32,000 nucleotides of DNA from Planctomycetales bacterium. Its GTDB lineage: Bacteria > 4484-113 > JAFGCY01. The stretch is from positions 1,110,001-1,142,000 of the forward strand of contig CP060262.1 of assembly GCA_022646745.1 (NCBI GenBank). The letters are read 5' to 3'. Positions 5,248 through 20,259 of the stretch are shown piece after piece. A program made the translations under genes and the position numbers. Numbering within the stretch: position 1 is the first letter of the stretch; each line of letters begins with the position of its first letter. The notes below the pieces were generated by a model. That model worked only from the letters and a program-made list of their open reading frames with translations, searched no databases and was not told where the DNA came from.

Positions 5248-5602
5248 AGCAGATGATGAGCACATACAAGATACAGTTCTTACGCTTTGCCGCTGGCCTG
5301 TTTGCCATCCACGCCCTGTTGGACGCCTGCGGCGACCCCCACCCGGGATGTCCAGCGGCAATCCTATGATGCTCTTCTTCGTGCCTTGGTGACTTGGTGG
5401 TTTCATTTTTGTTGGCCAGCAAGACACAAAGACACCAAGCAGATCGGATAGCGGCACTTGTTTTACGCAACCGGAAGTGGATATGGCGAAGAAGGCGTAT
5501 ATGGAAGTAGGGCGGCGGTAATACCGCCGCCGCGGATGGGGTGTCAGCCCATCCCTCCGTCATGCATGTTGCACGAGTGACCGGCTTGCGCCGGGATACC
5601 GC

Positions 5603-7070: not shown

Positions 7071-7142
7071 GCGTAAATTATAGGTTGAACCGGGGCCTGA
7101 TCCTCAAGCAGAGATTGACTCGTGCCGATCCACTGAAATAAG

Positions 7143-7853
7143 ATGGAAGCCGTGAAGCTCAGCCTCAACCTGCAGAACTGCGAGATCCCCGCCGGGTGCG
7201 CCAACTTCGGCGAGCTCGTTTCGTACATGGAGGAGCAGCAGATCCCGCAGGATGAGGTGATCACCCGCATCATCATCGACGGCAGCGATGTCAGTTCCGA
7301 GCGTGAGCTGGAGCTGGCCACGGAGCCGCTCAGCGAATTCGAGATCGTTGAGTTCTACTCCGCACGCACGCTTGACCTGGCCCGCCAGAGCATGCAGGAT
7401 GCAACAGAACTGCTGCCGGCGCTGCAGGCGGACCTGCCGAACGTGGCCACGGAGCTGCGCGGCGGCAACATCCAGGACGGGCTCCTGATGTTCGACAAAT
7501 GCCTGGAGATCATCAGCCACTACGTCAGCCTGGTGAATGCGATTGACGGGATCTACCGCCGGATCGACCCCAGTTTCCGCCTGCTGCCGAGTGCAGATGC
7601 GGCGACGGACGAGAACGAGACGGATTTCGATGTGGACAGCCTCAACCCGAACCCGGACAATGAGCTGAAGACCTTCGCCTCGATTGAGAACCTGCGCCAG
7701 AAGCTGATGAGCGTGGAGCAGGCCCAGGCGAACGGGGACAGCCTGCTTTTGGCGGACCTGATCGAGTTCGAGATCCTGCCAATCGTGGGGATCTGGAACA
7801 ACGAACTGCCGGTGCTGAACGGGCGGGTGCAAAGAGAAAACGCAAAAGCCTGA
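7143..7853 (+). CDS. Hypothetical acidic cytoplasmic protein
   Basis: 236-aa ORF with host-like GC3 bias, followed by an intrinsic terminator. I recognise no motifs and there is no obvious SD, so the start is uncertain. Confidence 0.6.
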   Translation: MEAVKLSLNLQNCEIPAGCANFGELVSYMEEQQIPQDEVITRIIIDGSDVSSERELELATEPLSEFEIVEFYSARTLDLARQSMQDATELLPALQADLPNVATELRGGNIQDGLLMFDKCLEIISHYVSLVNAIDGIYRRIDPSFRLLPSADAATDENETDFDVDSLNPNPDNELKTFASIENLRQKLMSVEQAQANGDSLLLADLIEFEILPIVGIWNNELPVLNGRVQRENAKA

Positions 7854-7957
7854 TTCCCCTGCCGTCTCACGCAAGCGCTCGACGGTCTGCGTGACGGCAA
7901 GAAACAAGTTTCGTGCCGCACGCACGAACAGCGCTCTCCCAACAAACATTGGAAGAT

Positions 7958-7984
7958 AAAGCGAGCCCCAGGGCTCGCTTTTTG
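7958..7984 (+). terminator. Rho-independent terminator
   Basis: GCGAGCC(CCAG)GGCTCGC stem followed by TTTTT. Confidence 0.75.
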
Positions 7985-7992
7985 CTTTCTTC

Positions 7993-8426
7993 GAGCAATG
8001 AAGAGTGAGCAATGAGAAGAAGTGGGATGAGGGATGGGGGATGAGGGATGAGCAGAAGCAGAATGAGAAGCAGTTAAGCAATGAGCAATGAAGAGTGAGC
8101 AATGAGCCCATGAGGCAGTTTGCCTGCTTCGTTGCATGGAATTATTTCTGACAACGGGTACTGAATTCGGGTTGTTGAACTCTGACAGTTCTGCATGGCG
8201 AGACAGAGATTGCAGCATTGGCTCATTGCTCACTCTTCATTGCTCATTGCTAACAAGGCGACTGGCAGTCGCCGCTCCAGCGAGCTGAATGCTCGCGCTC
8301 CATCCCCCGTCCCATTGTGCGCAAGCAAGTTGCGCACCTCCGCATCCCACATCCCACATCCCCCATCCCTCATCCCCCATCCCCCATCCCTCATCCCTCA
8401 TCCCTCATCCCTCATCCCCCATCCCG
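7993..8426. repeat. Composite nested palindromic element. GAGCAATGAAGAGTGAGCAATGAG occurs at 7993-8016 and 8084-8107, and its complement at 8221-8244. (GGGATGN)x4 at 8024-8052 faces (CATCCCN)x~12 at 8343-8425. A CAGAAG-type hexamer run lies at 8053-8073
   Basis: Direct reading of both strands. The inner pair encloses a loop of about 110 nt and the outer heptamer arrays are complementary. Confidence 0.8.
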
Positions 8427-8506
8427 CTTTTAGCACCTTGAGTCGGTAAACCCCGGCTTAATTTGCGTAAAGCGGGCAGTTTTTATATCGACCCCACTTT
8501 CAAAAA

Positions 8507-8526
8507 CTTTAGGCCGCGGGTAGATT
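8507..8526 (+). promoter_or_regulatory. Candidate promoter element CTTTAG-N6-GGTAGATT (possible -10 TAGATT) about 96 nt upstream of flagellin 1
   Basis: The same motif with the same spacing occurs upstream of flagellin 3 (14990-15009), and a related TCAAGTT-N6-GAATAGATT occurs upstream of flagellin 2. There is no conserved -35, so the sigma factor is unknown. Confidence 0.3.
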
Positions 8527-8600
8527 CTCCCTGCGGGCAGATTCCCCTGGTTGCCTGGCAACGATGAAGTTGCCAGTGGGGAGCCCGCCAACCCTTTCGC

Positions 8601-8619
8601 ACGTTCAAGGAGGAATGTG
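8601..8619 (+). promoter_or_regulatory. Conserved 19-nt leader ACGTTCAAGGAGGAATGTG containing the Shine-Dalgarno sequence of flagellin 1
   Basis: Identical 19-mer at 11795-11813 and 15076-15094. AAGGAGG lies 8 nt before the ATG. Confidence 0.8.
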
Positions 8620-8621
8620 TA

Positions 8622-11336
8622 ATGAGTGTCACACGTATCTACCAGAACCCGTTGGCTATCAATGCGAACCGGAATCTGAAGATCACCGGAATGAACATCT
8701 CCAAGTCCCTGGAGCGCCTGTCATCCGGTTTGCGTATCAACCGTGCCGCTGACGACGCCGCCGGCCTCTCCATCAGTGAGAAGTTGCGCAGCCAGATCCG
8801 CGGCCTCAACCGCGCCAGCACCAACGCCCTGGACGGCATTTCGCTAATCCAGACCGCGGAAGGTGCACTCAACGAGACGCACTCGATCCTGCAGCGCATG
8901 CGCGAGCTGAGTGTCCAGGCTGCCAACGGCATCTACACCGCCGGTGACCGCCAGGCCATCCAGCAGGAGGTCGGGCAGCTGATCGATGAGATCAACCGCA
9001 TCTCGGACACCACCGAGTTCAACACCAAGACCCTGCTTGACGGAACGCTGGGCGCCCTGATCTCCACCGACGACTTCACCAAGGTCCGTGCGGCCGTGGT
9101 CGGCAACGTCGGCAACGGCGGAAACTTCGTGCTGCGTGCCGCGGCACTCAACACCGGCCAGCTGCAGGTGCAGAAGACCGACGTGTTCTCCACCGTCCAG
9201 CAGGCTGACGCCGTCGGCAAGATCAACTACGCCAAGACCTACCGGGCTGACGTTGACATCGCCACCTCCAGCGTGAGCGGCGTCGGCAAGACCGGCATCT
9301 ACCAGGTCGAGGTGATCAACGATGCCAACGGCTCGACCGCCGTGCAGAGCACCGTGGACGCAACCTTCCGCATCAGCGGCGCCTCCTTCGCGGGTGGCGG
9401 CCTGAGCGTCGGCCGTTCCCTGCAGGCCGAGGAGCTGACCGTCGGCGACAAGATCCTGCTGACCGTCAACACCCAGAGCGGCGTGCAGACCGTGAGCGTC
9501 GTGCTCGGCAGCCTCGGCACCGACATGACCAGCATGGCGGCCCTGATGAGCACCGCGCTCAACAACGGCATTGCCAACGTCTCCAACGTGACATTCAACG
9601 CGAGCGGCCAGTTCAGCATCAACGTCTCGAACGGCGGTTCCTCACTCTCGATCATCAGCACGCAGTTCGTTGACACCGACGGCAGCGGTTCCGACTTCTA
9701 CATCAGTTTCGGTGCCTCCGGCCAGTCCAACAACTTCTACAGTGCGGTGCAGTACAGCTTCTTCAACAACGGCAGCGCCACCTCCGGCAGCCTGACCCGC
9801 ACAGGCGCGAGCGGCGAGTACTTCTCGATCGGCGATGCCAACACCGGTACCGTCGGAATCCGCTTCGACGTGCGCCATGACTTCAGCCAGGTCAGCCTGG
9901 CCGGCGCGACCCAGACCGACACCCTGACCTGGAGCCGCTACGGTGGTGGCAACAGCATCCAGGAGTACGGCGAGGTCTGGCAGAGCGGCCCGGCCGTGAC
10001 GAACGGCACCTTCATGGTCAGCGCGATCTCCGAGCGCACCTATGCGATCTTCGAGTTTGACAACGAGTCATACACCAGCCTGGTGGCAGCCGGAACCGAC
10101 CAGGATGTCGCCCTGCTGACGGCGCGCGGCGCCCGCATGAGCAACCTCAACGGTGACCAGACCTTCTCGATCGCGATGGCCTTCGAGGGCGCGGTCGGCA
10201 CCAACCTGGAGAACATCCACTTCGCGGTGGATGGCATCATGCAAAGCGGCGAGACCGCTACCTTCAACATCAGCACCAACAACGTGCTGACGGCGGACCA
10301 GCTCAACACGCTGGCCAGCCTCAACCGCTTCCAGGAGTTCGGCGTGTTCAACGGCCGCGACAGCGTGGAACTGACCCTCTACCTGCGCGGATCCAGCAAC
10401 ACCACCACAGTCAACCTGACCAAGAACGACACCTTCGAGGACATGGCGGGCAAGATCAGCCTGGCGATGTACAACCCGGACGGATCCGGCATCATCACCA
10501 GCGGCATCATCAACCCACAGCAGATCCCCGACCTGGTGCATGTCAACACGGTCGGCATGGCGAAGGGCACGATGTCCATCACCACCGCGGTGCCGGGAGC
10601 TGAGATCGTGTTCGCCGGTGACGAGAGCATCCTGAAGGCCCTGTCCCTGATCGAGGTGCAGGCCGGCGAGGCTCCGGTGTACAGCATCAACGCCTTCAAC
10701 ATCGAGAAGAACCAGCAGGTCGGCAGCGTGATCGTCAACTCCAACGAGATCAACGGCCTGCTGCCCGGCGTGAAGGTCTTCTTCGACAACACGCTCGGCC
10801 TCAAGCTGGATCCCCAGCCCCCGGTCACGGCCCAGGGCGGCGGTACCAACAACCTGACGAGCTTCGGCTACCAGCAGCCGACCGAGCGCCCGAGCATCTC
10901 ACTGTCCGGCAGCGTGGAGAGCTTCTTCATCCACGTCGCCCCGCGTGACTTCACCCTGCAGATCGGTGCCAACCAGGGCCAGACGATCAACACCTTCCTG
11001 TCCGACATGAGTGCCGAGGCACTCGGCGTGGAGGGCCTGGTGGTCGTCACCAGCGACCTGGCACAGGAGAGCATCAGCATCGTCGACCACGCGATCAGCA
11101 AGGTCAGCTCTGAGCGTTCCCGTCTCGGTGCAATCCAGAACCGCCTGGAAAGCACGATCCGCAACTTGGACGTCAGCGCCGAGAACCTGACCTCCTCCGA
11201 GAGCCGCATCCGCGACGTGGACGTGGCGCTCGAGACGATTGCCAGCACCCGCAACCAGATCCTGCTGCAGGCTGGCGTAGCTGCGATGGCCCAGGCCAAC
11301 CAGCTGCCCAACCAGATGCTGCAGCTGCTGCGCTAG
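8622..11336 (+). CDS. fliC: Giant flagellin paralog 1 (904 aa)
   Basis: N-terminus has LERLSSGLRINRAADDAAGLSISEKLRSQIRGLNRASTNALDGISLIQTAEGAL. C-terminus has SSERSRLGAIQNRLESTIRNLDVSAENLTSSESRIRDVDVALETIASTRNQILLQAGVAAMAQANQLPNQMLQLLR. These are the canonical flagellin D0/D1 signatures. Confidence 0.95.
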   Translation: MSVTRIYQNPLAINANRNLKITGMNISKSLERLSSGLRINRAADDAAGLSISEKLRSQIRGLNRASTNALDGISLIQTAEGALNETHSILQRMRELSVQAANGIYTAGDRQAIQQEVGQLIDEINRISDTTEFNTKTLLDGTLGALISTDDFTKVRAAVVGNVGNGGNFVLRAAALNTGQLQVQKTDVFSTVQQADAVGKINYAKTYRADVDIATSSVSGVGKTGIYQVEVINDANGSTAVQSTVDATFRISGASFAGGGLSVGRSLQAEELTVGDKILLTVNTQSGVQTVSVVLGSLGTDMTSMAALMSTALNNGIANVSNVTFNASGQFSINVSNGGSSLSIISTQFVDTDGSGSDFYISFGASGQSNNFYSAVQYSFFNNGSATSGSLTRTGASGEYFSIGDANTGTVGIRFDVRHDFSQVSLAGATQTDTLTWSRYGGGNSIQEYGEVWQSGPAVTNGTFMVSAISERTYAIFEFDNESYTSLVAAGTDQDVALLTARGARMSNLNGDQTFSIAMAFEGAVGTNLENIHFAVDGIMQSGETATFNISTNNVLTADQLNTLASLNRFQEFGVFNGRDSVELTLYLRGSSNTTTVNLTKNDTFEDMAGKISLAMYNPDGSGIITSGIINPQQIPDLVHVNTVGMAKGTMSITTAVPGAEIVFAGDESILKALSLIEVQAGEAPVYSINAFNIEKNQQVGSVIVNSNEINGLLPGVKVFFDNTLGLKLDPQPPVTAQGGGTNNLTSFGYQQPTERPSISLSGSVESFFIHVAPRDFTLQIGANQGQTINTFLSDMSAEALGVEGLVVVTSDLAQESISIVDHAISKVSSERSRLGAIQNRLESTIRNLDVSAENLTSSESRIRDVDVALETIASTRNQILLQAGVAAMAQANQLPNQMLQLLR

Positions 11337-11423
11337 GCATAAGGCAACCAGCCCAGCCGTACCGGGTCCATCAAGCGGGCCGGGCGGCGGGGATGAGCAT
11401 CGCCGGATTAGGCAAGGGATGGA

Positions 11424-11463
11424 GCCCCCCGGGTGGAAACGCCCGGGGGGCCTTTCAGTTTTC
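11424..11463 (+). terminator. Rho-independent terminator of flagellin 1
   Basis: GCCCCCCGGG(TGGAAACG)CCCGGGGGGC followed by CTTTCAGTTTT. Confidence 0.8.
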
Positions 11464-11661
11464 AGGGACGAGGGACCGGGGATCGGCAGTTGGCAGAATC
11501 AGAATGAGAAGCAGCAGAATGCAATCGTCAGTGAGCTGATTCCTTTACCTGCTTCTGCATCTGCATCTGCTTCTCATCCTGCATCTGATTCTGATTCTAC
11601 TTCTGTTTCTGCTTCTGTTTCTTAATTTTTACCTGACAACTGACCACTGCCAACAGACCAC
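11464..11661. repeat. Post-terminator palindromic element. The purine-rich arm (GGGACC, CAGTTGGCAG, GAATCA/GAAGCA units) spans 11464-11522. The pyrimidine-rich arm has 12 CTGNTT hexamers (11549-11622) and then CTGACAACTGACCACTGCCAAC
   Basis: Direct reading. The arms are imperfect reverse complements in the same unit order. Confidence 0.75.
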
Positions 11662-11703
11662 TTTTCAATGGCTAAATTACCCTGAATATTATTAGTCTCC
11701 TTA

Positions 11704-11723
11704 TCAAGTTCCGGGAATAGATT
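11704..11723 (+). promoter_or_regulatory. Candidate promoter element TCAAGTT-N6-GAATAGATT about 93 nt upstream of flagellin 2
   Basis: Position and the TAGATT core are shared with the elements upstream of flagellins 1 and 3. Confidence 0.25.
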
Positions 11724-11794
11724 ACTGATACTCGTTAGGCTTTGTCAGAGCACCACGGCCTTTAGCAAGCTGTGGCCGGCCATAGCAACCGAGC

Positions 11795-11813
11795 ACGTTC
11801 AAGGAGGAATGTG
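11795..11813 (+). promoter_or_regulatory. Conserved 19-nt SD leader of flagellin 2
   Basis: ACGTTCAAGGAGGAATGTG, identical to 8601-8619. Confidence 0.8.
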
Positions 11814-11815
11814 TA

Positions 11816-14527
11816 ATGAGTGTCACACGTATCTACCAGAACCCGCTGGCAATCAATGCCAACCGGAACCTGAAGATCACCGGAATGAACATCTCCAAGT
11901 CATTGGAGCGCCTGTCTTCCGGATTGCGCATCAACCGTGCCGCTGACGACGCAGCGGGACTGACCATCAGTGAGAAGCTGCGCAGCCAGATCCGCGGCCT
12001 CAACCGCGCCAGCACCAACGCGCTGGACGGCATCTCCCTGATCCAGACGGCGGAGGGCGCCCTCAACGAGACGCACTCGATCCTGCAGCGCATGCGTGAG
12101 CTGAGCGTGCAGGCCGCCAACGGCATCTACACCGCCAACGACCGCCAGGCGATCCAGTCCGAGGTCGGGCAGCTGATCGACGAGATCAACCGCATCTCCG
12201 ACACCACCGAGTTCAACACCAAGACCCTGCTTGACGGTACGCTCGGTGCCCTGATCTCCACCGACGACTTCACCAAGGTCCGCGCGGCGGTGGTCGGCAA
12301 TGTCGGCAACGGCGGCAACTTCGTGCTGCGCGCCGCGGCACTGGACACCGGCCAGCTGCAGGTGCAGAAGACCGACGTGTTCTCCACGGTGCAGACCGGC
12401 GACGCGGTCGGCTCGATCAACTTCCAGAAGACCTACCGCGCCGACGTTGACATTGCCACCGCCGGCGTGAGCGGTGTGGGCCAGACCGGCCTGTACCAGG
12501 TCGAGGTGATCCGCGATGCCAACGGCTCCACCGCCGTGCAGAGCACCGTGGACGCCACCTTCCGCATCAGCGGCGCGTCCTATGCGGGCGGCGGCCTGAG
12601 CCTCGGCCGCTCCCTGCAGGCCGAGGAGCTGACCGTCGGCGACAAGATCCTGCTCACGGTGAACACCCAGAGCGGCGTCGAGACCGTCAGCATCGTGATC
12701 GGCAGCCTCGGCACCGACATGACGAGCCTCGCCGGCCTGATGAGCACCGCTCTCAACAACGGCCTGGCAAACGTCTCGAGCGTGGGCTTCAACGCCGCCG
12801 GCCAGTTCAGCATCGGGGTCTCCAACGGTGGCTCCAGCCTGAGCATCATCAGCACGCAGTTCGTTGACACCGACGGCAGCGGCTCGGACTTCTACATCAG
12901 CTTCGGCTCCAGCGGGCAGTCCAACAGCTTCTACAGCGCGGTGCAGTACAGCTTCTTCAACAACGGCAGTGCGACTTCCGGCAGCCTGGCACGCGCCGGT
13001 GGTGCCAGCATCAGCGGCCAGTACTTCTCGATCGGCGATGCCAACACCGGTACCGTCGGCATCCGGCTCGACGTGCGCTTCGACTTCAGCACGGTCAGCC
13101 TGGCCGGCTCCAACGCGAGCGACACCCTGAAGTGGGAGCGCTTCACCGGCGGCAACAGCCTGCAGGAGTACGGTTCCGTCTGGCAGGAGGGCAGCGCCGT
13201 CACCAACGGCACCTTCCTCGTCAGTGCGATCTCGGAGCGCACATATGCGATCTTCGAGTTCGACAACCAGGCCTACACCAGCCTGACGAGCGGCGGCACC
13301 GACCAGGAGGTCGCACTGCTGACCGCCCGCGGCGCGCGGATGAGCAATGTCAACGGCGACCAGACCTTCTCGATCGCCGTGGCCTTCGAGGGCGCGGTCG
13401 GCACCAACCTGGAGAACATCCACTTCGCGGTGGACGGCATCCTGCAGAGCGGAGAGACGGCGACCTTCAACATCAGCACCAACAACGTGCTGACGGCGGA
13501 CCAGCTCAATACCCTGGCAAGCCTCAACCGCTTCCAGGAGTTCGGCGTGTTCAACGGCCGCGACAGTGTGGAGCTGACCCTCTACCTGCGCGGTTCCTCG
13601 CAGACCACCACCGTCAACCTGACCAAGAACGACACATTCGAGGACATGGCGGGCAAGATCTCGCTGGCGATGTACAACCCGGATGGGACGGGCATCATCA
13701 CGAGCGGCATCATCAACCCGCAGCAGATCCCGGATCTGGTGCACGTGAACACGGTCGGCATGGCGAAGGGCACGATGTCCATCACCACCGCCGTGCCCGG
13801 CGCCGAGGTCGTGTTCGCCGGTGACGAAAGCCTGCTGAAGGCCCTGTCACTGGTGGAGATCCAGGAGGGCGAGGCCCCGGTGTACAGCATCAACGCCTTC
13901 AACATCGAGAAGAACCAGACGGTCGGCTCCACGATCGTGCGGTCCAACGAGATCAACGGCCTGCTGCCCGGTGTGAAGCTGTTCTTCGACAACACGCTCG
14001 GCCTCAAGCTGGATCCCCAGCCCCCGGTCAACACCACCAACAACCTCACGAGCTTCGCGTACCAGCAGCCCAACGAGCGTCCTGACATCTCCCTGTCCGG
14101 CAGCATCGAGAGCTTCTTCGTACACGTCGCCCCGCGTGCCTTCAACCTGCAGATCGGCGCAAACCAGGGCCAGACGATCGACACCTACCTGTCCGACATG
14201 AGTGCGGAAGCACTCGGTGTGGAGGGACTCGTCGTCGTCACCAGTGACCTGGCGCAGGAGAGCATCAGCATCGTCGACCACGCGATCAGCAAGGTCAGCT
14301 CTGAGCGTTCCCGCCTGGGAGCGATCCAGAACCGTCTCGAGAGCACGATCCGCAACCTGGACGTGAGCGCCGAGAACCTGACCTCTTCAGAGAGCCGCAT
14401 CCGTGACGTGGACGTGGCACTGGAGACCATCGCCAGCACGAGGAACCAGATCCTGCTGCAGGCTGGTGTGGCTGCGATGGCCCAGGCCAACCAGCTCCCT
14501 CAGAACATGCTGCAGCTGCTGAGGTAG
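11816..14527 (+). CDS. fliC: Giant flagellin paralog 2 (903 aa)
   Basis: Collinear with paralog 1 over its whole length, with the same D0/D1 termini. Confidence 0.95.
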   Translation: MSVTRIYQNPLAINANRNLKITGMNISKSLERLSSGLRINRAADDAAGLTISEKLRSQIRGLNRASTNALDGISLIQTAEGALNETHSILQRMRELSVQAANGIYTANDRQAIQSEVGQLIDEINRISDTTEFNTKTLLDGTLGALISTDDFTKVRAAVVGNVGNGGNFVLRAAALDTGQLQVQKTDVFSTVQTGDAVGSINFQKTYRADVDIATAGVSGVGQTGLYQVEVIRDANGSTAVQSTVDATFRISGASYAGGGLSLGRSLQAEELTVGDKILLTVNTQSGVETVSIVIGSLGTDMTSLAGLMSTALNNGLANVSSVGFNAAGQFSIGVSNGGSSLSIISTQFVDTDGSGSDFYISFGSSGQSNSFYSAVQYSFFNNGSATSGSLARAGGASISGQYFSIGDANTGTVGIRLDVRFDFSTVSLAGSNASDTLKWERFTGGNSLQEYGSVWQEGSAVTNGTFLVSAISERTYAIFEFDNQAYTSLTSGGTDQEVALLTARGARMSNVNGDQTFSIAVAFEGAVGTNLENIHFAVDGILQSGETATFNISTNNVLTADQLNTLASLNRFQEFGVFNGRDSVELTLYLRGSSQTTTVNLTKNDTFEDMAGKISLAMYNPDGTGIITSGIINPQQIPDLVHVNTVGMAKGTMSITTAVPGAEVVFAGDESLLKALSLVEIQEGEAPVYSINAFNIEKNQTVGSTIVRSNEINGLLPGVKLFFDNTLGLKLDPQPPVNTTNNLTSFAYQQPNERPDISLSGSIESFFVHVAPRAFNLQIGANQGQTIDTYLSDMSAEALGVEGLVVVTSDLAQESISIVDHAISKVSSERSRLGAIQNRLESTIRNLDVSAENLTSSESRIRDVDVALETIASTRNQILLQAGVAAMAQANQLPQNMLQLLR

Positions 14528-14573
14528 TGAAGCCTCTGACGCTTCGCAGCATCTCACTTGATCAGTGAGCAGC

Positions 14574-14603
14574 GCCCCCGGGCCAGTGGCCCGGGGGCTT
14601 TTT
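14574..14603 (+). terminator. Rho-independent terminator of flagellin 2
   Basis: GCCCCCGGGCC(AGT)GGCCCGGGGGC followed by TTTTT. Confidence 0.85.
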
Positions 14604-14609
14604 AATAAT

Positions 14610-14757
14610 CAGTTGGCAGTGGGCAGTGGGGAGTATCAGAATGAGAATGAGAAACAGAAGCAGCAGAAGAGGGTAAACAGTTGTAAGTTTCCTGACCTGC
14701 TTCTCATTCTGATTCTGATTCTGAGCCTGACCACTGATTTCTGACAACTGGCCACTG
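14610..14757. repeat. Post-terminator palindromic element. The left arm CAGTTGGCAGTGGGCAGTGGGGAGTATCAGAATGAGAATGAGAAACAGAAGCAGCAGAAG spans 14610-14669. The right arm CTGCTTCTCATTCTGATTCTGATTCTGAGCCTGACCACTGATTTCTGACAACTGGCCACTG spans 14697-14757
   Basis: The reverse complement of the left arm aligns by eye with the right arm in the same unit order. The loop is about 27 nt. Confidence 0.8.
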
Positions 14758-14989
14758 TTTTTCTGACTTTGCGGCTGAAATCGAAAATAAATCCGGTCCA
14801 TTTTCCAGCGACCCTGACCAATGGTCTATTCTCCGCCCCCATTTTCTTAACCGCGGCTGAAGCGACGCCGATATTGGTTGCCAATCTCCCCGTTTGATTC
14901 CTTCATTCCAGGCCGCTCCTGTCCCGGCATTCGCCCTCTCCTCCCCGCGCTACACCCCGCAGGCAGTTTATCGGCCACAATTGCAGCAG

Positions 14990-15009
14990 CTTTAGTTTTC
15001 CGGTAGATT
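14990..15009 (+). promoter_or_regulatory. Candidate promoter element CTTTAG-N6-GGTAGATT about 88 nt upstream of flagellin 3
   Basis: Identical motif and spacing to 8507-8526. TTGCAG lies 17 nt upstream of TAGATT. Confidence 0.3.
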
Positions 15010-15075
15010 TTTCCCGCCGGACAGCAGGACCAAGTGTCAGAAATGGCAGGTGACGGCTGGCCGAGCATCCCGCCT

Positions 15076-15094
15076 ACGTTCAAGGAGGAATGTG
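15076..15094 (+). promoter_or_regulatory. Conserved 19-nt SD leader of flagellin 3
   Basis: ACGTTCAAGGAGGAATGTG, identical to 8601-8619. Confidence 0.8.
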
Positions 15095-15096
15095 GC

Positions 15097-17820
15097 ATGA
15101 GTGTTTCTCGTATATATCAGAACCCGTTGGCAATCAACGCCAACCGTAACCTCAAGATCACGGGGATGAACATCTCCAAGTCCCTGGAAAGACTGTCCAG
15201 TGGTCTGAGGATCAACCGTGCCGCAGATGACGCCGCCGGCCTCTCCATCAGTGAGAAGTTGCGCAGCCAGATCCGCGGCCTCAACCGCGCCAGCACCAAC
15301 GCCCTGGACGGCATCAGCCTGATCCAGACCGCGGAAGGTGCGCTCAACGAGACCCACAGCATCCTGCAGCGCATGCGTGAGCTGTCCGTGCAGGCCGCCA
15401 ACGGCATCTACACCGCCGGCGACCGCATCGCGATCCAGCAGGAAGTCAGCCAGCTCGTGGGGGAAATCAACCGCATCTCCGACACCACGGAGTTCAACAC
15501 CAAGACCCTGCTCGACGGGACGCTCGGCGCCCTGATCTCGACTGACGACTTCAGCCGGATCAGCGCGGCCGTGACCGGCAACGTCGGCAAGGGTGGCAAC
15601 TTCGTGCTGAAGGCCGCCGCGCTGACAACCGGCAACCTGCAGGTGCAGAAGTCGGACGTGTTCTCCACGGTGCAGCAGGCGGACGCCGTCGGCCGGATCA
15701 ACTCCGCGCTGACCTTCCGCGCGGATGCGGAGATCGCCACCGCCAGCACAAACGGCGTCGGGCATACCGGCATCTACCAGGTCGAGGTGCTGAATGACAG
15801 TTTCGGCAGCGTGGCCGTGCAGAGCACCGGTCCCGGCACCTTCCGCATCAGCGGTGCCTCGATCAGCGGCGGCGCCCTGAGCATCGGCCGCAACCTGCAG
15901 GCGGAGGAGCTGACCGTCGGCGACAAGATCCTGCTGACAGTCAACACCCAGAGCGGCGTGAGCACGGTCAGCATCGTGCTCGGCAGCCTCGGCACAAACA
16001 TGACGAGCCTGGCCGGACTGATGAGCAACGCGCTGAACGGCGGCTTTGCCAACGTCTCGAACGTGACCTTCAACGCCAGCGGACAGTTCAGCATCAACGT
16101 CTCCAACGGCGGCTCGACCCTGTCCATCATCAGCTCCAAGTTCGTTGACACAGATGGCAGCGGCTCGGACTTCTACATCAGCTTCGGCAGCGCCGGTGGT
16201 TCGAACACCTTCTACAGTTCGGTGCAGTACAGCTTCTTCAACAACGGCAGCGCCACCTCCGGCAGCCTGTCCCGCGGCGGCGGTGCCAGCATCAGCGGCC
16301 ACTTCTTCTCGATCGGCGATGCCAACACGGGCACGATCGGCATCCGCTTCGACACCCGCTATGACTTCAGCCAGGTCAGCCTCGCCAACACGACGGCGAC
16401 CGATACCATCAACTGGAGCCGCTGGGACGGTGGCAACAGCATCCAGGAGTACGGCAAGGTCTGGCAGGATGGACCGGCCGTTACCAACGGCACCTTCATC
16501 GTGTCCAGTGCCGGTGCCCGCACATATGCAATCTACGAATTCGACAACCAGGCATACACTGACCTCGTCGCAGGCGGCGTGGACCAGGACATCGCCTTCA
16601 AGACGGCCCGCGGCGACCGGCAGGTCGACATCAACGGCGACAACCTGTTCTCGATCGGCGTGGCCTTCGAGGGCGCGGTCGGCAGCGACCTGGAGAACAT
16701 CCACTTCGCGCTGGACGGCATCATGCAGGTCGGTGAGCAGGCCACCTTCAACATCAGCACCAACAACGTGCTGACGGCGGACCAGCTCAATACCCTGGCA
16801 AGCCTCAACCGCTTCCAGGAGTTCGGCGTGTTCAACGGCCGCGACAGCGTGGAGCTGACGCTCTTCCTGCGCGGGTCCAGCGAGTCCACCACGATCAACC
16901 TGACCAAGAATGACAGCTTCGAGGACATGGCCGGCAAGATCAGCCTGGCGATGTACAACACCGACGGCAGCGGCATCATCAAGAGCGGCATCATCAACCC
17001 GCAGCAGGTGCCGGACCTGGTGCACGTGAACACGATCGGCATGGCGAAGGGCACGATGTCCATCACCACGGCGGTACCGGGTGCCGAAGTGGTGTTCGCC
17101 GGTGACGAAAGCATCCTGAAGGCCCTGTCCCTGATCGAGATCGAGGAGGGCACGGCCCCCGTCTACAGCATCAGCGCCTTCAACATCGAGAAGAACGCGG
17201 AGGTCGGCAAGGTGATCGTCAACTCCAACGAGATCAACGGCCTGCTGCCCGGCGTGAAGCTGTTCTTCGACAACACACTCGGCCTCAAGCTGGATGCCCA
17301 GCCGCCGACCAGCATCGCCGGCGGCGGCACGAACGGCATGATCAGCTTCGGCTACCAGGCCCCGACGGAGCGCCCGACGATCTCGCTCGGTGGCAACATC
17401 GAAAGCTTCTTCGTCCATGTCGCGCCGCGTGACTTCAGCCTGCAGATCGGTGCCAACCAGGGCCAGACGATCGACACCTTCATCGCCGACATGAGTGCCC
17501 AGGCACTCGGCGTGGAGGGCCTGGTGGTGGTCACGAGTGACCTCGCCCAGGAGGCGATCAGCATCGTTGACAATGCGATCAACACGGTCAGCAGCCAGCG
17601 CTCCAGGCTGGGTGCCCTGCAGAACCGACTGGAAAGCACGATCCGCAACCTGGATGTCAGCGCCGAGAACCTGACCTCATCCGAGAGCCGCATCCGCGAC
17701 GTGGACGTGGCCCTCGAGACGATCGCCTCGACCCGCAACCAGATCCTGCTGCAGGCAGGTGTGGCGGCGATGGCCCAGGCCAACCAGATGCCGCAGCAGA
17801 TGCTGCAGCTGCTGGGCTAA
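15097..17820 (+). CDS. fliC: Giant flagellin paralog 3 (907 aa), the most diverged copy
   Basis: The ORF is open from 15034. Homology to paralogs 1 and 2 (MSVSRIYQNPLAINANRNLK) and the conserved SD leader place the start at ATG 15097. Confidence 0.93.
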   Translation: MSVSRIYQNPLAINANRNLKITGMNISKSLERLSSGLRINRAADDAAGLSISEKLRSQIRGLNRASTNALDGISLIQTAEGALNETHSILQRMRELSVQAANGIYTAGDRIAIQQEVSQLVGEINRISDTTEFNTKTLLDGTLGALISTDDFSRISAAVTGNVGKGGNFVLKAAALTTGNLQVQKSDVFSTVQQADAVGRINSALTFRADAEIATASTNGVGHTGIYQVEVLNDSFGSVAVQSTGPGTFRISGASISGGALSIGRNLQAEELTVGDKILLTVNTQSGVSTVSIVLGSLGTNMTSLAGLMSNALNGGFANVSNVTFNASGQFSINVSNGGSTLSIISSKFVDTDGSGSDFYISFGSAGGSNTFYSSVQYSFFNNGSATSGSLSRGGGASISGHFFSIGDANTGTIGIRFDTRYDFSQVSLANTTATDTINWSRWDGGNSIQEYGKVWQDGPAVTNGTFIVSSAGARTYAIYEFDNQAYTDLVAGGVDQDIAFKTARGDRQVDINGDNLFSIGVAFEGAVGSDLENIHFALDGIMQVGEQATFNISTNNVLTADQLNTLASLNRFQEFGVFNGRDSVELTLFLRGSSESTTINLTKNDSFEDMAGKISLAMYNTDGSGIIKSGIINPQQVPDLVHVNTIGMAKGTMSITTAVPGAEVVFAGDESILKALSLIEIEEGTAPVYSISAFNIEKNAEVGKVIVNSNEINGLLPGVKLFFDNTLGLKLDAQPPTSIAGGGTNGMISFGYQAPTERPTISLGGNIESFFVHVAPRDFSLQIGANQGQTIDTFIADMSAQALGVEGLVVVTSDLAQEAISIVDNAINTVSSQRSRLGALQNRLESTIRNLDVSAENLTSSESRIRDVDVALETIASTRNQILLQAGVAAMAQANQMPQQMLQLLG

Positions 17821-17851
17821 GCGTAGCTAATCCCTGAGCTTTACGAGAAGC

Positions 17852-17891
17852 GCCTCCTCCGGCCGGATGGTCCGGGGGAGGCCGCTTTTTT
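17852..17891 (+). terminator. Rho-independent terminator of flagellin 3
   Basis: GCCTCCTCCGG(CCGGATGGT)CCGGGGGAGGC followed by CGCTTTTTT. Confidence 0.8.
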
Positions 17892-17977
17892 CAGGTTACT
17901 GGTATCAGGTTGCAGGTTGCGGAGATCAGGGAAAACGGAGTATTGGCAGAAGCAGAATAAGAAGCAGAAGTAGAATC
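17892..17977. repeat. Post-terminator half element. It has CAGGTTN heptamers (17892-17930) and a GGCAGAAGCAGAATAAGAAGCAGAAGTAGAATC hexamer run (17945-17977), with no complementary arm before the convergent gene
   Basis: Direct reading. Confidence 0.6.
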
Positions 17978-18037
17978 TGTTGCGGCGGCTTCCAGCCGCC
18001 GGACTCAGTCAACTGCTTGTAATTGAATCCGTTCAGC

Positions 18038-18361
18038 TCAGACGGTTACGTGATCGGTGTCATCTACCTTATCCACATGGTCCTTTGGACGCCTGAAGGG
18101 AATCAGGATTCCGATGAAGCAGGCGTAGGTCAGCGCAGACCACATGTCCGTGCTTCTGGGGCCGGAGCCAGCCAGTGACATCGCATTCAGGGATGCACTG
18201 ATGATGATTGCCAGCCTGCTGACAGTGATCCAGATGGCCAGCAGACGCTGGTTCAATCCCGTACTGTTGAGCTGCAGGCCCGACGGCAGCCTGAACACGA
18301 GCCCAACCACGCTGAGCAGCATCACGAGGATTGTCATCACCCATGAGATTGTGTGCCACAT
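18038..18361 (-). CDS. Small hypothetical membrane protein (107 aa)
   Basis: Three hydrophobic segments (WVMTILVMLLSVVGLVF, LLAIWITVSRLAIIISASL, ALTYACFIGILIPF). GC is lower than in the neighbouring genes and no SD was checked. Confidence 0.45.
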   Translation of the reverse strand: MWHTISWVMTILVMLLSVVGLVFRLPSGLQLNSTGLNQRLLAIWITVSRLAIIISASLNAMSLAGSGPRSTDMWSALTYACFIGILIPFRRPKDHVDKVDDTDHVTV

Positions 18362-18501
18362 GGCCAGCCCCCGCAGGCAGCAGTGATGGTTTACATACTA
18401 ACACCAGGACCAGATCAAGTGTGTTTGCCTACGGGAAACTGTGAACATCTGGTGCTTTAAGTGCCGATTGCCAAGTCTGCTCTCCGCTTACAGCTTCCTG
18501 C

Positions 18502-20259
18502 CTACTCAGTAGCCTCGTAGCAACCCGCATCCAGCAGGCCGTCGAACACTGGCTGTGGTCGCATGTTGCCATCGAAGTCCAGCGGCGGGAAGCCGAGGAT
18601 GTCCGTGCCCAGTTCAGTTGCAAGCGATCCGGGCAGGATGTGGTAGTCGTCGATCAGTGAATTGAGGAACACAGCCTCATCAGTCATTTCAATGCTGTGC
18701 TGGTCGTTGCCTGTGTTTGACTTCCAGTCAGCCAGGTCGTAGACATTCGCGTCGTCATCAGGCGTGAAGCGGCCGATGGCCAGGTTGTAGTCACTGGAGA
18801 AGCCCGCCAGGCAGTCCGCATCAAGGCTGATCGCGCCGCGGAAGTCATGCCGGTTCCAGAGGATGTTGTTGCGCAGGGTATTGCCGGTGCTGGCGTTTGC
18901 GATCCGGATGCACCAGCGGCCGTCAGCCGCCTGCACGATCGTGTTGCAGACCACCAGGTTGCCGGTGGAGGTCAGGCCGTCCTGGCTGAACAGGGTGATG
19001 CCGGAGGCATGGTTGCCATAGAGAAGGTTGTTGCGGATCACGCTGTCGCGCAGGCCGTCCATGTTGAGGGCCGCACCACCGCCGCTGCCGTTGTCAAAGC
19101 AGACATTGCGCTCAATCAGCGCACCACTCATGATCCCGTCGCCACCCTGGCTGGCATCGGCGTTGAACTGGATCCCGCCGCGCTTGTTGCTGAAGCAGAC
19201 ATTGCCGCGGGCGATGTTCTCATCACCACTGTTGCTGAGGTAGATCCCGTGTTCGTCCCCGCTGAAGCTGCAGGTGTTGTACTCCACCACCAGCCTGTCC
19301 GTGAAGCCGCTGAAGATGCCCCAGCGGGCATTACCGGTGCAGTTGTTGTGCCGGAGGATGATGTCATGCGCCGGCGTCGCAGCACTGCCGACCACGCGGA
19401 TGCCTGCCCGCGAGCAGTCACGTACCGTGAAGCCCTCGACCACGATGTCGTGGATGTCCGGGGCCTCGAAATTCTCGATGTTGATCCCGTCCGGGGTTTC
19501 CACATTGTCAAAGATCACTGCTGCCCCGTCCAGTGCACTGAAGGTGATCGGGGAGCCCGGCATACCGCTGCGCGACAGCATGAAGCCCTCGTAGTTGCCC
19601 GGCCGCACGATCACCGTGTCTCCCGCCACCACGTTGTCAGCAGCCTTCTGCAGGGTGCCCCAGGGCAGGGTCACACTGCCGGGGTTGTTGTCATTGCCAC
19701 CGCTGCTGACAGGTGCGACATAGAACGTGTTGCCACCGTGTTCCTCGTCGTAGACAAGCGCCAGGCTGTCCAGCTGTGACTGCATCCCGCCGGACTTGAG
19801 CGCCGGGGCCAGCACCACGCAGTAGCAGAAGCCGCCCGGGGAAATCAGCCCCTGCGCATCTGACAGGTCAATCAGGGCCTCGCCCTCACTGAGCACGCTG
19901 AAGAAGCGCCAGCGCCCGAGCTGGAAGTCGGCCGCGGCGATGTAGAACAGGCCGCTGCCGCTGGCAATCAGGCTGTCCAGCGGTCCCTCGGGGGCCGGCA
20001 CCTGGAAGATGCACCAGGCATGCTCATCCTGCGTGGGCTTCAGCACGCGGCGTTCCTCATCAAGCGGTTCGCAGTTGAACTGGCTGTGGGGCTGTACGAG
20101 GCTCAGGCGGAAGGATTCGATGATGCTCGGCTGTCGAAGCTGGTCGAGGCCGTTGATGCCAGGCAGCTCTCCATCCACGGGCTGCAGCAGCGGCGCGGCG
20201 GAAGCGCAGGCCGCCATCAGGCAGGCCAGCAGCAGGCATGGCAGGTGGATCAGCCTCAC
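18502..20259 (-). CDS. Secreted right-handed parallel beta-helix repeat protein (pectate-lyase-fold superfamily) with an N-terminal domain of about 190 aa and unknown fold
   Basis: Signal peptide MRLIHLPCLLLACLMAACASA. TFYVAPVSSGGNDNNPGSVTLPWGTLQKAADNVVAGDTVIVRPGNYEGF is the typical beta-helix entry motif. Repeated N-x-x-x-G-I PbH1-like turns follow (NARWGIF, HGIYLSNSGDENIARGNVCFSN, GGIQFNAD, NHASGITLF). Confidence 0.8.
   Translation of the reverse strand: MRLIHLPCLLLACLMAACASAAPLLQPVDGELPGINGLDQLRQPSIIESFRLSLVQPHSQFNCEPLDEERRVLKPTQDEHAWCIFQVPAPEGPLDSLIASGSGLFYIAAADFQLGRWRFFSVLSEGEALIDLSDAQGLISPGGFCYCVVLAPALKSGGMQSQLDSLALVYDEEHGGNTFYVAPVSSGGNDNNPGSVTLPWGTLQKAADNVVAGDTVIVRPGNYEGFMLSRSGMPGSPITFSALDGAAVIFDNVETPDGINIENFEAPDIHDIVVEGFTVRDCSRAGIRVVGSAATPAHDIILRHNNCTGNARWGIFSGFTDRLVVEYNTCSFSGDEHGIYLSNSGDENIARGNVCFSNKRGGIQFNADASQGGDGIMSGALIERNVCFDNGSGGGAALNMDGLRDSVIRNNLLYGNHASGITLFSQDGLTSTGNLVVCNTIVQAADGRWCIRIANASTGNTLRNNILWNRHDFRGAISLDADCLAGFSSDYNLAIGRFTPDDDANVYDLADWKSNTGNDQHSIEMTDEAVFLNSLIDDYHILPGSLATELGTDILGFPPLDFDGNMRPQPVFDGLLDAGCYEATE

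What the first reader, a model, noticed from the sequence alone, without database searches (positions are those of the whole stretch)
8507..17891. Array of three tandem, independently transcribed giant flagellin genes with no flagellar accessory genes nearby
Three collinear paralogs of 904, 903 and 907 aa are about three times the size of typical flagellins. Each has the same 19-nt SD leader, a similar upstream motif about 90 nt from the start, and its own strong intrinsic terminator. Together they occupy 9.2 kb. Their GC3-rich codon usage matches the host genes, so they look native. Many synonymous differences in the conserved termini indicate long-term purifying selection on all three copies rather than a very recent duplication. 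Giant flagellins have been described in only a few lineages. A triple array suggests a thick or heteropolymeric filament, or differential expression.
Basis: partly seen in the sequence, partly recalled or inferred. Interest (0 to 1): 0.8.

Follow-up and report, generated by a model that had tools for sequence, protein, structure and literature searches.

The report
Three tandem large flagellin genes
An uncultured wastewater bacterium carries three adjacent, intact genes for unusually large (about 905 aa) flagellins that resemble the Geovibrio thiophilus flagellin known to build a 24-nm-thick flagellum, so this is a real but largely ordinary new example of a known kind.

Summary
Three collinear ORFs (8622-11336, 11816-14527, 15097-17820; 904, 903 and 907 aa) all carry Pfam Flagellin_N and Flagellin_C. 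Each has an identical 19-nt leader and a strong terminator. GC3 is 0.90, like the host genes, and dN/dS is 0.04-0.19 in the termini.

They are flagellins, not FlgL and not flagellinolysin. The roughly 650-aa outer region is homologous to the 793-aa Geovibrio thiophilus flagellin, whose 240 Å filament has been solved (PDB 9au6). That organism also has three similar-sized flagellin genes close together.

The window comes from a 4.11-Mb contig (GenBank UNM09297-99, annotated "hypothetical protein"). The same contig encodes FlhB and a 1288-aa FliD cap. Flagellar genes are scattered singly in this lineage, so the lack of flagellar neighbours is normal there.

The 19-nt leader is a hairpin that presents AAGGAG (GGA plus the Shine-Dalgarno sequence) in its loop. 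The hairpin shows strong covariation across 30 flagellin leaders. This is the form of a CsrA-type translational control site.

The promoters remain unresolved. By Thomson et al. (2018) these are "large" (>800 aa) flagellins, not "giant" (>1000 aa), and that paper calls giant flagellins widespread. Verdict: new member of a known kind, modest interest.

The parts
8622..11336 (+). fla1, large flagellin, 904 aa; identical to GenBank UNM09297.1 / H7A35_04395
   Evidence: ORF and translation. Pfam Flagellin_N and Flagellin_C. Exact match to P0277. AF2 model has pLDDT 78; top PDB fold hit is 9au6_A at E 1e-44.
11816..14527 (+). fla2, large flagellin, 903 aa; identical to UNM09298.1 / KDL29_12810
   Evidence: Exact match to P0005.
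15097..17820 (+). fla3, large flagellin, 907 aa from the ATG; identical to UNM09299.1 / H7A35_04405
   Evidence: Exact match to P0280. The ATG at 15097 lines up with the starts and leaders of the other two copies.
8601..8619 (+). Leader hairpin of fla1. Stem CACGUUC/GAAUGUG (one G-U pair), loop AAGGAG, which holds the Shine-Dalgarno sequence and the GGA motif. Predicted CsrA-type translational control site.
   Evidence: Identical in all three copies. Present in the MFE fold. Covariation across 30 flagellin leaders: 82.9% of cells paired versus 54% in shuffles, 61 cells with changes on both sides, 0 of 500 shuffles as high.
11795..11813 (+). Leader hairpin of fla2 (same sequence)
15076..15094 (+). 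Leader hairpin of fla3 (same 19 nt)
   Evidence: In the 121-nt MFE fold of this copy the hairpin is replaced by an alternative pairing.
8519..8526 (+). Upstream motif GGTAGATT, a possible TAnnnT -10-like element about 100 nt before the fla1 ATG. Function not established.
   Evidence: TAGATT is retained in the ortholog L004.
11716..11723 (+). Upstream motif AATAGATT before fla2
   Evidence: It reads ATGGATT in the ortholog L004.
15002..15009 (+). Upstream motif GGTAGATT before fla3
   Evidence: The orthologs have GGTAAGTT.
14847..14874 (+). Sigma-28-like element TTAA-N16-GCCGATAT, about 220 nt upstream of fla3. Candidate class III promoter.
   Evidence: The -10 CCGATAT is conserved in orthologs. 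Relatives carry canonical TAAA-N15-GCCGATA at comparable distances. The fliD of the same genome has TTCA-N15-GCCGATAT about 70 nt before its ATG (read by eye).
14968..14994 (-). Exact sigma-28 consensus TAAA-N15-GCCGATAA on the minus strand, pointing away from fla3. Unexplained.
   Evidence: Pattern search gave 1 match against 0.01 expected. There is no credible ORF downstream on the minus strand.
11424..11461 (+). Intrinsic terminator after fla1 (12-bp GC stem followed by a U-rich tail)
   Evidence: Folds at -33.5 kcal/mol, z -4.3.
14574..14608 (+). Intrinsic terminator after fla2 (11-bp GC stem followed by UUUUU)
   Evidence: Folds at -28.3 kcal/mol, z -4.2.
17847..17894 (+). Intrinsic terminator after fla3 (long GC stem followed by UUUUUU)
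   Evidence: Folds at -32.4 kcal/mol, z -3.9.

Best explanation
The three genes encode functional paralogous filament subunits (flagellins) of a bacterial flagellum in an uncultured bacterium. The source is a 4.11-Mb contig labelled 'Planctomycetales bacterium'; sister MAGs are labelled 'UBP7' or 'bacterium'.

Each protein has the canonical D0/D1 helical core at both ends. Between them sits a beta-rich, acidic outer region of about 650 aa that is homologous to the D2-D5 outer domains of the Geovibrio thiophilus flagellin.

Inferred steps:
- The subunits are exported through the flagellar type III apparatus (FlhB is in the genome).
- They polymerise under a very large FliD cap (1288 aa, same genome).
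- The resulting filament is markedly thicker than the Salmonella type, of the order of the 24 nm seen in G. thiophilus.

Each gene appears to be its own transcription unit, ending at a strong intrinsic terminator. Each mRNA carries the same leader hairpin, which displays AAGGAG (GGA plus the Shine-Dalgarno sequence) in its loop. I infer that this hairpin is bound by CsrA or an equivalent factor, coupling flagellin translation to secretion status as in the Bacillus subtilis Hag-FliW-CsrA circuit.

The triplication predates the split from sister species, and all three copies are kept under purifying selection. Which copies enter the filament, and when, cannot be told from sequence.
For: Shown:
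- Flagellin_N and Flagellin_C in all three.
- NCBIfam flagellin models score 277-281 bits, against 89-91 for FlgL, which is below its 127 cut-off.
- AF2 model pLDDT 78. Foldseek top hit is 9au6_A, the G. thiophilus flagellum, at E 1e-44, TM 0.48/0.54 and 26% identity.
- phmmer against the PDB gives the same top hit at 1.5e-77, with two stretches covering residues 9-430 and 323-903.
- The outer-region-only model again has 9au6 as its only significant hit, E 1.7e-12.
- G. thiophilus has a 240 Å filament, D2-D5 outer domains, an acidic surface, and three flagellin genes of similar length close together.
- The outer region here has 57-60 D+E against 30-33 K+R.
- All three proteins are identical to UNM09297-99 on the 4,112,261-bp contig.
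- The same contig carries FlhB UNM09256.1, which scores 361 bits on TIGR00328 (cut-off 349); the SctU model scores below its own cut-off.
- The same contig carries FliD UNM07747.1, 1288 aa, with FliD_N and FliD_C.
- In more distant family members the gene order is flagellin-flaG-fliD. In L007 and L008, flhB lies 4-5 kb from the flagellin.
- Orthologous three-gene arrays in the same order occur in HKST-UBA03 and in an ENA contig. Ortholog dN/dS is about 0.10; paralog terminal dN/dS is 0.04-0.19.
- Hairpin covariation.
- Terminators.

Inferred: CsrA binding, filament thickness, and separate transcription units.
Against: - There is no expression, proteomic or imaging evidence.
- Only two flagellar genes (flhB, fliD) were tied to this genome. 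The basal body, hook, motor, fliA, fliS, csrA and fliW were not tested.
- Promoters could not be assigned. The only exact sigma-28 consensus near the genes is on the opposite strand.
- A second upstream CsrA-type site, common in relatives, is not evident in the three leaders here.
- In the sister genome AC1.30 the array has four copies. One has 55 gap openings and another has a frameshift plus a 3-nt deletion in the SD, so copies can be lost, or that assembly is faulty.
- The G. thiophilus filament contained only one of its three flagellins.
- Domain orientations in the AF2 model are uncertain (TM about 0.5).
Confidence: 0.8

Rival explanations
1. Only one copy is the major filament protein. 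The other two are alternates or minor components, used under other conditions or at particular positions along the filament, or held as a reservoir for recombination. On this view the array serves differential expression or variation rather than a heteropolymer.
For: - In G. thiophilus the cryo-EM density fitted only one of three similar flagellins.
- Each gene here has its own terminator, and the sequence upstream of the leader differs between copies.
- Paralog differences concentrate in parts of the outer region (residues 211-240, 421-450 and 481-510), which suggests surface differences.
- Copy order and number differ in AC1.30, with signs of recombination and decay.
Against: - All three copies have orthologs in the same order in a sister species, with dN/dS of about 0.10. 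None is drifting in this genome.
- The identical leader suggests common translational control.
- Sequence alone cannot separate this view from a mixed filament.
Confidence: 0.4
2. The proteins are flagellin-derived but do not serve mainly in swimming. They might act as a secreted or surface adhesin or mineral-binding fibre, or the organism might lack a complete rotary flagellum.
For: - The outer region is acidic, as in G. thiophilus, where adhesion to positively charged minerals was proposed.
- There are no flagellar neighbours, and only two apparatus genes were verified.
- GenBank annotates the three proteins as hypothetical.
Against: - The D0/D1 regions, which carry polymerisation and export functions, are the most strongly constrained parts.
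- A flagellum-specific FlhB and a filament cap FliD are in the same genome.
- Related loci have flaG-fliD next to the flagellin.
- An adhesive role would add to motility, not replace it.
Confidence: 0.07
3. They are hook-filament junction proteins (FlgL) or enzymatic flagellins (flagellinolysin-like), not structural flagellins.
For: - JGI labels a few homologs 'flagellin-like hook-associated protein FlgL'.
- NCBIfam lists weak FlgL and flagellinolysin matches.
Against: - FlgL TIGR02550 scores 89-91 bits, below its 127 cut-off and far below the flagellin models.
- The flagellinolysin match (72 bits, cut-off 205) covers only a short stretch (residues 769-835) at the junction with the shared C-terminal region. 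There is no HExxH motif.
- The fold searches find no enzyme.
Confidence: 0.02

Closest known systems
Geovibrio thiophilus flagellin (A0A3R5UZF4, PDB 9au6; Nat Commun 2024, PMC11532411)
   Same: - D0/D1 core plus a very large beta-rich outer region that is homologous by both sequence and fold.
- Acidic outer surface.
- Three flagellin genes of similar length close together in the genome.
- The leader hairpin with GGA in its loop is also present in Deferribacteres flagellin genes.
   Different: - The proteins here are about 110 aa longer (904 vs 793 aa) and only about 26% identical.
- The host is an uncultured lineage that is not among the classes the paper lists for this outer-domain type (Chrysiogenetes, Clostridia, Deferribacteres, Synergistia).
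- The three genes here form a strict head-to-tail array, and flagellar genes are otherwise scattered.
- The acid:base ratio is about 2:1 here, against about 3:1 there.
- There is no structural or expression evidence here.
Giant flagellins of Bermanella marisrubri and Oleibacter marinus (Thomson et al. 2018, PMC6248924)
   Same: An oversized flagellin with an expanded surface region. Those proteins were shown to give thick filaments.
   Different: - Those are >1000 aa and built from DE/DX repeat regions in gamma-proteobacteria.
- The proteins here are 903-907 aa, which is 'large' by that paper's terms.
- Their outer region matches the G. thiophilus type instead.
- I did not test for DE regions.
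Bacillus subtilis hag leader and the FliW-CsrA-Hag partner switch (established knowledge: Yakhnin 2007; Mukherjee 2011; recalled, not read here)
   Same: A flagellin mRNA leader with a GGA motif in a hairpin loop overlapping the Shine-Dalgarno sequence. Relatives of this family also carry one to three further upstream CA[AC]GGAGGTG hairpins, comparable to the second CsrA site of hag.
   Different: - No clear second site is visible in the three leaders of this window.
- csrA and fliW were not located in this genome.
- Binding is untested.
Multi-flagellin arrays in other bacteria (e.g. Caulobacter, Vibrio, spirochaetes; general knowledge)
   Same: Several closely related flagellin genes in tandem. 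Tandem pairs of large flagellins also occur in the related loci L026, L034, L038, L047 and L053.
   Different: Those classical examples use normal-sized flagellins, and for most of them the filament composition is known.

Membership tests
Bacterial flagellin (FliC/Hag; Pfam PF00669 + PF00700) | N-terminal D0/D1 helical region | tested here: met
   Flagellin_N at residues 8-142, 146-152 bits against a cut-off of 26.6. The AF2 model has long helices at 10-130.
Bacterial flagellin (FliC/Hag; Pfam PF00669 + PF00700) | C-terminal D1/D0 helical region | tested here: met
   Flagellin_C over the last 86 aa, 84-91 bits against a cut-off of 23. Helix at 811-903 in the model.
Bacterial flagellin (FliC/Hag; Pfam PF00669 + PF00700) | Closer to flagellin than to the paralogous FlgL | tested here: met
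   Flagellin Hag model 277-281 bits. FlgL TIGR02550 89-91 bits, below its 127.2 cut-off.
Bacterial flagellin (FliC/Hag; Pfam PF00669 + PF00700) | Genome encodes the flagellar export apparatus and filament cap | tested here: inconclusive
   FlhB (TIGR00328 361 bits, cut-off 349) and FliD (1288 aa) are on the same 4.11-Mb contig. All other apparatus genes are untested.
Bacterial flagellin (FliC/Hag; Pfam PF00669 + PF00700) | Polymerises into the flagellar filament | not testable with these tools
   Needs microscopy or proteomics.
G. thiophilus-type large flagellins (outer domains D2-D5, PDB 9au6) | Outer region homologous in fold | tested here: met
   Foldseek E 1e-44, TM 0.48/0.54 for the full model. 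For the outer region alone, E 1.7e-12 and the only significant hit (that model has only pLDDT 61).
G. thiophilus-type large flagellins (outer domains D2-D5, PDB 9au6) | Sequence homology beyond D0/D1 | tested here: met
   phmmer stretches cover query residues 9-430 and 323-903. tblastn of residues about 567-790 hits Deferribacteres flagellins at 25-29% identity.
G. thiophilus-type large flagellins (outer domains D2-D5, PDB 9au6) | Strongly acidic outer surface | tested here: inconclusive
   D+E:K+R is about 2:1 in the outer region, against about 3:1 reported for G. thiophilus. Surface exposure was not computed.
G. thiophilus-type large flagellins (outer domains D2-D5, PDB 9au6) | Thick filament of about 24 nm with outer-domain dimerisation | not testable with these tools
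   Needs cryo-EM.
Giant flagellins sensu Thomson et al. 2018 | Length above 1000 aa | tested here: not met
   903-907 aa. The paper calls >800 aa 'large'.
Giant flagellins sensu Thomson et al. 2018 | DE/DX repeat regions of the Oceanospirillales type | not tested
   No DE-region model was available. The outer region matches a different structural type.
Flagellinolysin (proteolytic flagellin) | HExxH metalloprotease domain in the variable region | tested here: not met
   No HExxH motif. NF033876 scores 72 bits against a cut-off of 205, and only over residues 769-835. No protease fold hit.
CsrA-controlled flagellin leader (B. subtilis hag type) | GGA in a hairpin loop overlapping the Shine-Dalgarno sequence | tested here: met
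   Stem CACGUUC/GAAUGUG with loop AAGGAG. Covariation: 82.9% of cells paired against 54% in shuffles, 61 cells with changes on both sides, 0 of 500 shuffles as high, slid controls 29-49%.
CsrA-controlled flagellin leader (B. subtilis hag type) | Second upstream GGA site | tested here: inconclusive
   CA[AC]GGAGGTG hairpins are present in most relatives (L006, L007, L018, L020-L024, L053) but are not evident in the three window leaders.
CsrA-controlled flagellin leader (B. subtilis hag type) | csrA and fliW in the genome; CsrA binds the leader | not tested
The whole genome was not available.

The most novel reading that the evidence does not exclude
This uncultured lineage may build an exceptionally thick filament from several large flagellin paralogs: three in the array plus one or two 895-aa types elsewhere. 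The filament would be capped by a co-evolved giant FliD (1288 aa). That FliD belongs to a family with only 26 detectable members among 5.8 billion proteins, many of them labelled only 'bacterium' like the hosts of the large flagellins; sharing of a genome with the large flagellins was confirmed only for the window's own. Use of the copies might be governed partly by sigma-28 promoters on the opposite strand, which would produce antisense or divergent RNAs between neighbouring copies. This would be a flagellin-switching arrangement that has not been described.
Probability: 0.1. Interest if true: 0.55.

Novelty: new member of a known kind. Interest (0 to 1): 0.3.

Why it matters
It extends the G. 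thiophilus-type large flagellin family to an uncultured wastewater and marine lineage, where the genes are currently annotated as hypothetical proteins. It shows that tandem multi-copy arrays are common for this family. It points to a matching, very large FliD cap. It also provides a covariation-supported leader hairpin that links flagellin translation control across distant phyla. None of this overturns current understanding. It offers targets for annotation fixes and for structural work on thick flagella.

Tried and rejected
- Rfam scan of 8000-18600. Only sub-threshold miRNA-precursor matches to long intergenic hairpins; no known RNA family.
- Exact-sequence contig look-up with the window's fla1 failed. 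The ENA copy differs by 1 aa; the exact matches came from cluster members.
- tblastn of 40 E. coli flagellar and chemotaxis proteins against all held loci. Nothing in the window. It did give the flhB lead in L007/L008 and the fliD lead in L022/L023.
- tblastn with CsrA (sequences recalled from memory) against 1.04 Mb of loci: no hit.
- Outer-region-only structure prediction. Low confidence (pLDDT 61, pTM 0.34), so used only as a secondary check.
- BLASTP of the giant FliD against fla1: no significant similarity. Shared outer domains between the cap and the flagellin are therefore not shown.
- Literature search for 'UBP7': no description of motility. The current GTDB UBP7 has 0.8-1.4-Mb genomes, so the depositors' label probably no longer applies to this 4.1-Mb genome. 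Taxonomy is left open.
- Sigma-54 promoter. TGGCAA...TTGC at about 8555-8572 has the wrong spacing (3 nt too long, read by eye). Rejected.
- Sigma-70 scan: 3 hits against 1.9 expected, none placed sensibly.
- Flagellinolysin and FlgL readings: rejected.


Full report
**1. Observation.**
The window holds three head-to-tail ORFs on the plus strand: 8622-11336 (904 aa), 11816-14527 (903 aa) and 15097-17820 (907 aa). The third is counted from the ATG that aligns with the other two; the longest ORF starts at GTG 15034. Each carries Pfam Flagellin_N (residues 8-142) and Flagellin_C (last 86 residues) far above the gathering scores. Copies 2 and 3 are 91% and 84% identical to copy 1.

The 19 nt before each start codon, ACGTTCAAGGAGGAATGTG, are identical in all three (8601-8619, 11795-11813, 15076-15094). 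A shared RRTAGATT motif lies about 90-100 nt upstream of each ATG. Each gene is followed by a GC-rich hairpin and a T run. These fold at -28 to -34 kcal/mol, and none of 200 shuffles fold as well.

GC3 is 0.90-0.91, within the 0.82-0.93 range of confident neighbours. Nei-Gojobori estimates between paralogs give dS of 0.37-0.43. dN/dS is 0.04-0.14 in the N-terminal 145 codons, 0.05-0.19 in the C-terminal 100 codons, and 0.27-0.46 in the outer region.

No neighbouring ORF scanned matches a flagellar family. The neighbours include an SLC12-type permease, two AhpC/redoxin genes, a GNAT acetyltransferase, a NosD/beta-helix protein, a DUF6754 protein, a polyprenyl synthase and ResB. E. coli flagellar proteins find nothing in the window.

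**2. What the proteins are.**
NCBIfam flagellin models score 277-281 bits. FlgL scores 89-91 bits, below its cut-off. The flagellinolysin model touches only a short stretch (residues 769-835) at the junction with the shared C-terminal region, and there is no HExxH motif.

An AlphaFold2 model built on 36 family members (pLDDT 78) has the expected long terminal helices and a beta-rich region of about 650 residues. Foldseek against the PDB gives one outstanding hit: 9au6_A, the cryo-EM structure of the Geovibrio thiophilus flagellum (793-aa flagellin; E 1e-44, TM 0.48/0.54, 26% identity). All other hits align only the D0/D1 core. A sequence search of the PDB ranks the same chain first (1.5e-77), with matched stretches that run through the outer region. 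A lower-confidence model of the outer region alone again finds only 9au6 at a significant level, plus faint FliD-cap resemblances. No enzyme fold appears.

The paper behind 9au6 (PMC11532411) reports several points:
- The flagellin has outer domains D2-D5 that raise the filament diameter to 240 Å.
- The surface is strongly acidic.
- The genome has three flagellins of similar length close to one another.
- The filament density fitted only one of the three.

The outer region here is also acidic, with 57-60 D+E against 30-33 K+R.

**3. Family and host.**
About 100 proteins of 860-1140 aa align over their full length at 40-95% identity. All come from metagenomes or MAGs labelled "bacterium". A scan of one genome per GTDB species with an outer-region profile found them in MAGs labelled UBP7 (HKST-UBA01/03, saline activated sludge), AC1.30, SJ870, Zodletone, Auka and "uncultured Planctomycetales". 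The last third of the outer region also hits Deferribacteres flagellins at 25-29% identity.

The three window proteins are residue-for-residue identical to UNM09297.1, UNM09298.1 and UNM09299.1 (locus tags H7A35_04395 to 04405). These lie on a 4,112,261-bp contig labelled "Planctomycetales bacterium", where they are annotated as hypothetical proteins. The phylum assignment stays open, because the current UBP7 is described as having 0.8-1.4-Mb genomes.

Orthologous three-gene arrays in the same order exist in HKST-UBA03 and in an ENA contig. Ortholog dN/dS is about 0.10, so the triplication predates these species and all copies are maintained.

Sister genomes also have one or two separate 895-aa flagellins at other loci. 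Tandem pairs are frequent across the wider family.

**4. Is there a flagellum?**
Flagellin loci in this lineage have no flagellar neighbours. In two relatives, however, a full-length flhB lies 4-5 kb from the flagellin. Searching with that FlhB found orthologs on the same multi-megabase contigs that carry the large flagellins (2.38 Mb and 2.70 Mb).

It also found a cluster member, UNM09256.1, on the window's own 4.11-Mb contig, 42 accession numbers from the flagellins. That protein passes the flagellar FlhB equivalog cut-off (361 bits against 349) and fails the injectisome SctU cut-off. flhB is itself an isolated gene in every context examined, so scattered flagellar genes are the rule in this lineage.

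In more distant family members the order is flagellin-flaG-fliD, with a 1127-aa FliD. Searching with that FliD gave only 26 hits among 5.8 billion proteins, nearly all 1120-1300 aa. One is UNM07747.1 (1288 aa, FliD_N and FliD_C) on the window's contig.

Two flagellum-specific genes are thus tied to this genome. The remainder could not be tested with the tools available.

**5. The leader.**
The 19-nt "SD leader" folds into a hairpin with stem CACGUUC/GAAUGUG and loop AAGGAG. It appears in the minimum-free-energy folds of copies 1 and 2.

I aligned 30 distinct flagellin leaders without gaps on the GGAG: the window, the lineage's other loci, Deferribacteres and others. Over the eight proposed pairs:
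- 82.9% of cells are standard pairs, against 54% in column shuffles.
- 61 cells have changes on both sides, against 22.5 expected.
- 0 of 500 shuffles reach the observed score.
- Sliding the partners drops pairing to 29-49%.

A GGA in a hairpin loop overlapping the Shine-Dalgarno sequence is the known form of a CsrA binding site. This is how B. subtilis controls hag translation through FliW-CsrA (established knowledge, not re-read here). Most relatives carry one to three additional upstream CA[AC]GGAGGTG hairpins. The three window leaders do not show an obvious second site.

I infer CsrA-type translational control. csrA and fliW were not located.

**6. Promoters.**
Relatives have canonical sigma-28 promoters (TAAA-N15-GCCGATA) 115-200 nt upstream of the flagellin start. 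In the window:
- fla3 has a plus-strand TTAA-N16-GCCGATAT at 14847-14874, and its -10 is conserved in orthologs.
- The fliD of the same genome has TTCA-N15-GCCGATAT.
- No comparable plus-strand element was found for fla1 or fla2.
- The shared RRTAGATT fits a TAnnnT -10, but its -35 is weak and the hexamer changes to TAAGTT in fla3 orthologs.
- The only exact sigma-28 consensus lies on the minus strand at 14968-14994, against 0.01 expected by chance. A weaker minus-strand version precedes fla1. No minus-strand ORF follows.

I leave this unexplained. Separate transcription units are supported by the terminators, not by mapped promoters.

**7. Mechanism, rivals and comparison.**
Best reading (confidence 0.8): these are functional flagellin paralogs. 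They are exported by the flagellar type III system, polymerised under a giant FliD cap into a thick G. thiophilus-like filament, and regulated translationally through the leader hairpin.

Sequence cannot decide whether all three co-assemble or one dominates. The G. thiophilus precedent and the copy-number changes in AC1.30 favour keeping the "one major, others alternate" reading at about 0.4. In AC1.30 there are four copies in a different order, one with 55 gap openings and one with a frameshift plus an SD deletion. A non-motility role alone is unlikely (0.07). FlgL and protease readings are effectively excluded.

By Thomson et al. (2018) these are "large" rather than "giant" flagellins. That paper states that giant flagellins are widespread across phyla, including Deferribacteres, Planctomycetes and Glassbacteria.

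**8. Verdict.**
The feature is real and well described. It is a new member of a known kind, with a solved structural homolog that even shares the three-paralog arrangement. Interest is modest (0.3). The points worth a specialist's attention are the co-occurring giant FliD family, the covariation-supported leader hairpin, the minus-strand sigma-28 consensus, and the mis-annotation as hypothetical proteins.

Noticed in passing
Not in the window. GenBank UNM07747.1 (P0254) is on the same 4.11-Mb contig; L062:715-4581; L022:13654-17037: A giant FliD filament cap (1288 aa; 1127 aa in L022). Its family has only 26 detectable members among 5.8 billion proteins, nearly all 1120-1300 aa, many from sources labelled only 'bacterium'; co-occurrence with the large flagellins was confirmed for the window's own contig and L022. 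BLASTP shows no significant similarity to the flagellin outer region.
   Followed up: partly
window 14968-14994 (minus strand); weaker version at 8485-8511 (minus strand): An exact sigma-28 consensus TAAA-N15-GCCGATAA points away from fla3 towards the fla2 terminator, against 0.01 expected by chance. No ORF lies downstream. It could drive an antisense or divergent RNA.
   Followed up: partly
window 8343-8425, 11549-11622, 14697-14724; inverted repeats 8077-8117/8211-8251, 11494-11514/11567-11598, 14632-14657/14697-14722: The intergenic spacers around the flagellin genes are filled with 6-7-nt tandem repeats (CATCCCT x12, CTGCTT x12). Long imperfect inverted repeats are built from these units just downstream of the terminators. 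Similar short repeats occur at the window start (11-441). Function unknown; possibly genome-wide repeat elements.
   Followed up: partly
window about 3740-5920: A stretch of about 2.2 kb is absent from the three sister loci L001, L004 and L005. It includes a low-GC ORF (4606-5247, GC 0.42, GC3 0.46), a 177-nt direct repeat (5602-5944, 1.9 copies), and a duplicated AhpC/redoxin gene on either side (3111-3680 and 6014-6565). It looks like an insertion or duplication.
   Followed up: no
L005 (MAG AC1.30, JAWLAZ010000001.1) 6351-18534: The sister genome has four flagellin copies in a different order (fla2-like, fla1-like, fla2-like, fla3-like). Copy 3 has 55 gap openings relative to fla2. Copy 4 has an early frameshift and a 3-nt deletion inside the SD loop. 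These are either pseudogenes or long-read assembly errors.
   Followed up: partly
GenBank UNM10045.1 (P0287), same 4.11-Mb contig, outside the window: A 250-aa 'hypothetical protein' clusters with an 895-aa large flagellin of the sister genomes. It may be a truncated or mis-called fourth flagellin gene in the window's genome.
   Followed up: no
window 8622-17820 as deposited in GenBank (UNM09297-UNM09299): All three flagellins are annotated 'hypothetical protein' in the public records, despite Pfam flagellin matches with E-values down to about 1e-44.
   Followed up: yes
L018:9200-9480, L020, L023, L053 and other relatives (upstream of their flagellin genes): The 5' UTRs of related large flagellin genes carry one to three extra short hairpins CA[AC]GGAGGTG (GGA in the loop) between a canonical sigma-28 promoter and the SD hairpin. 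This resembles multi-site CsrA leaders. These hairpins are missing from the window's three copies.
   Followed up: partly
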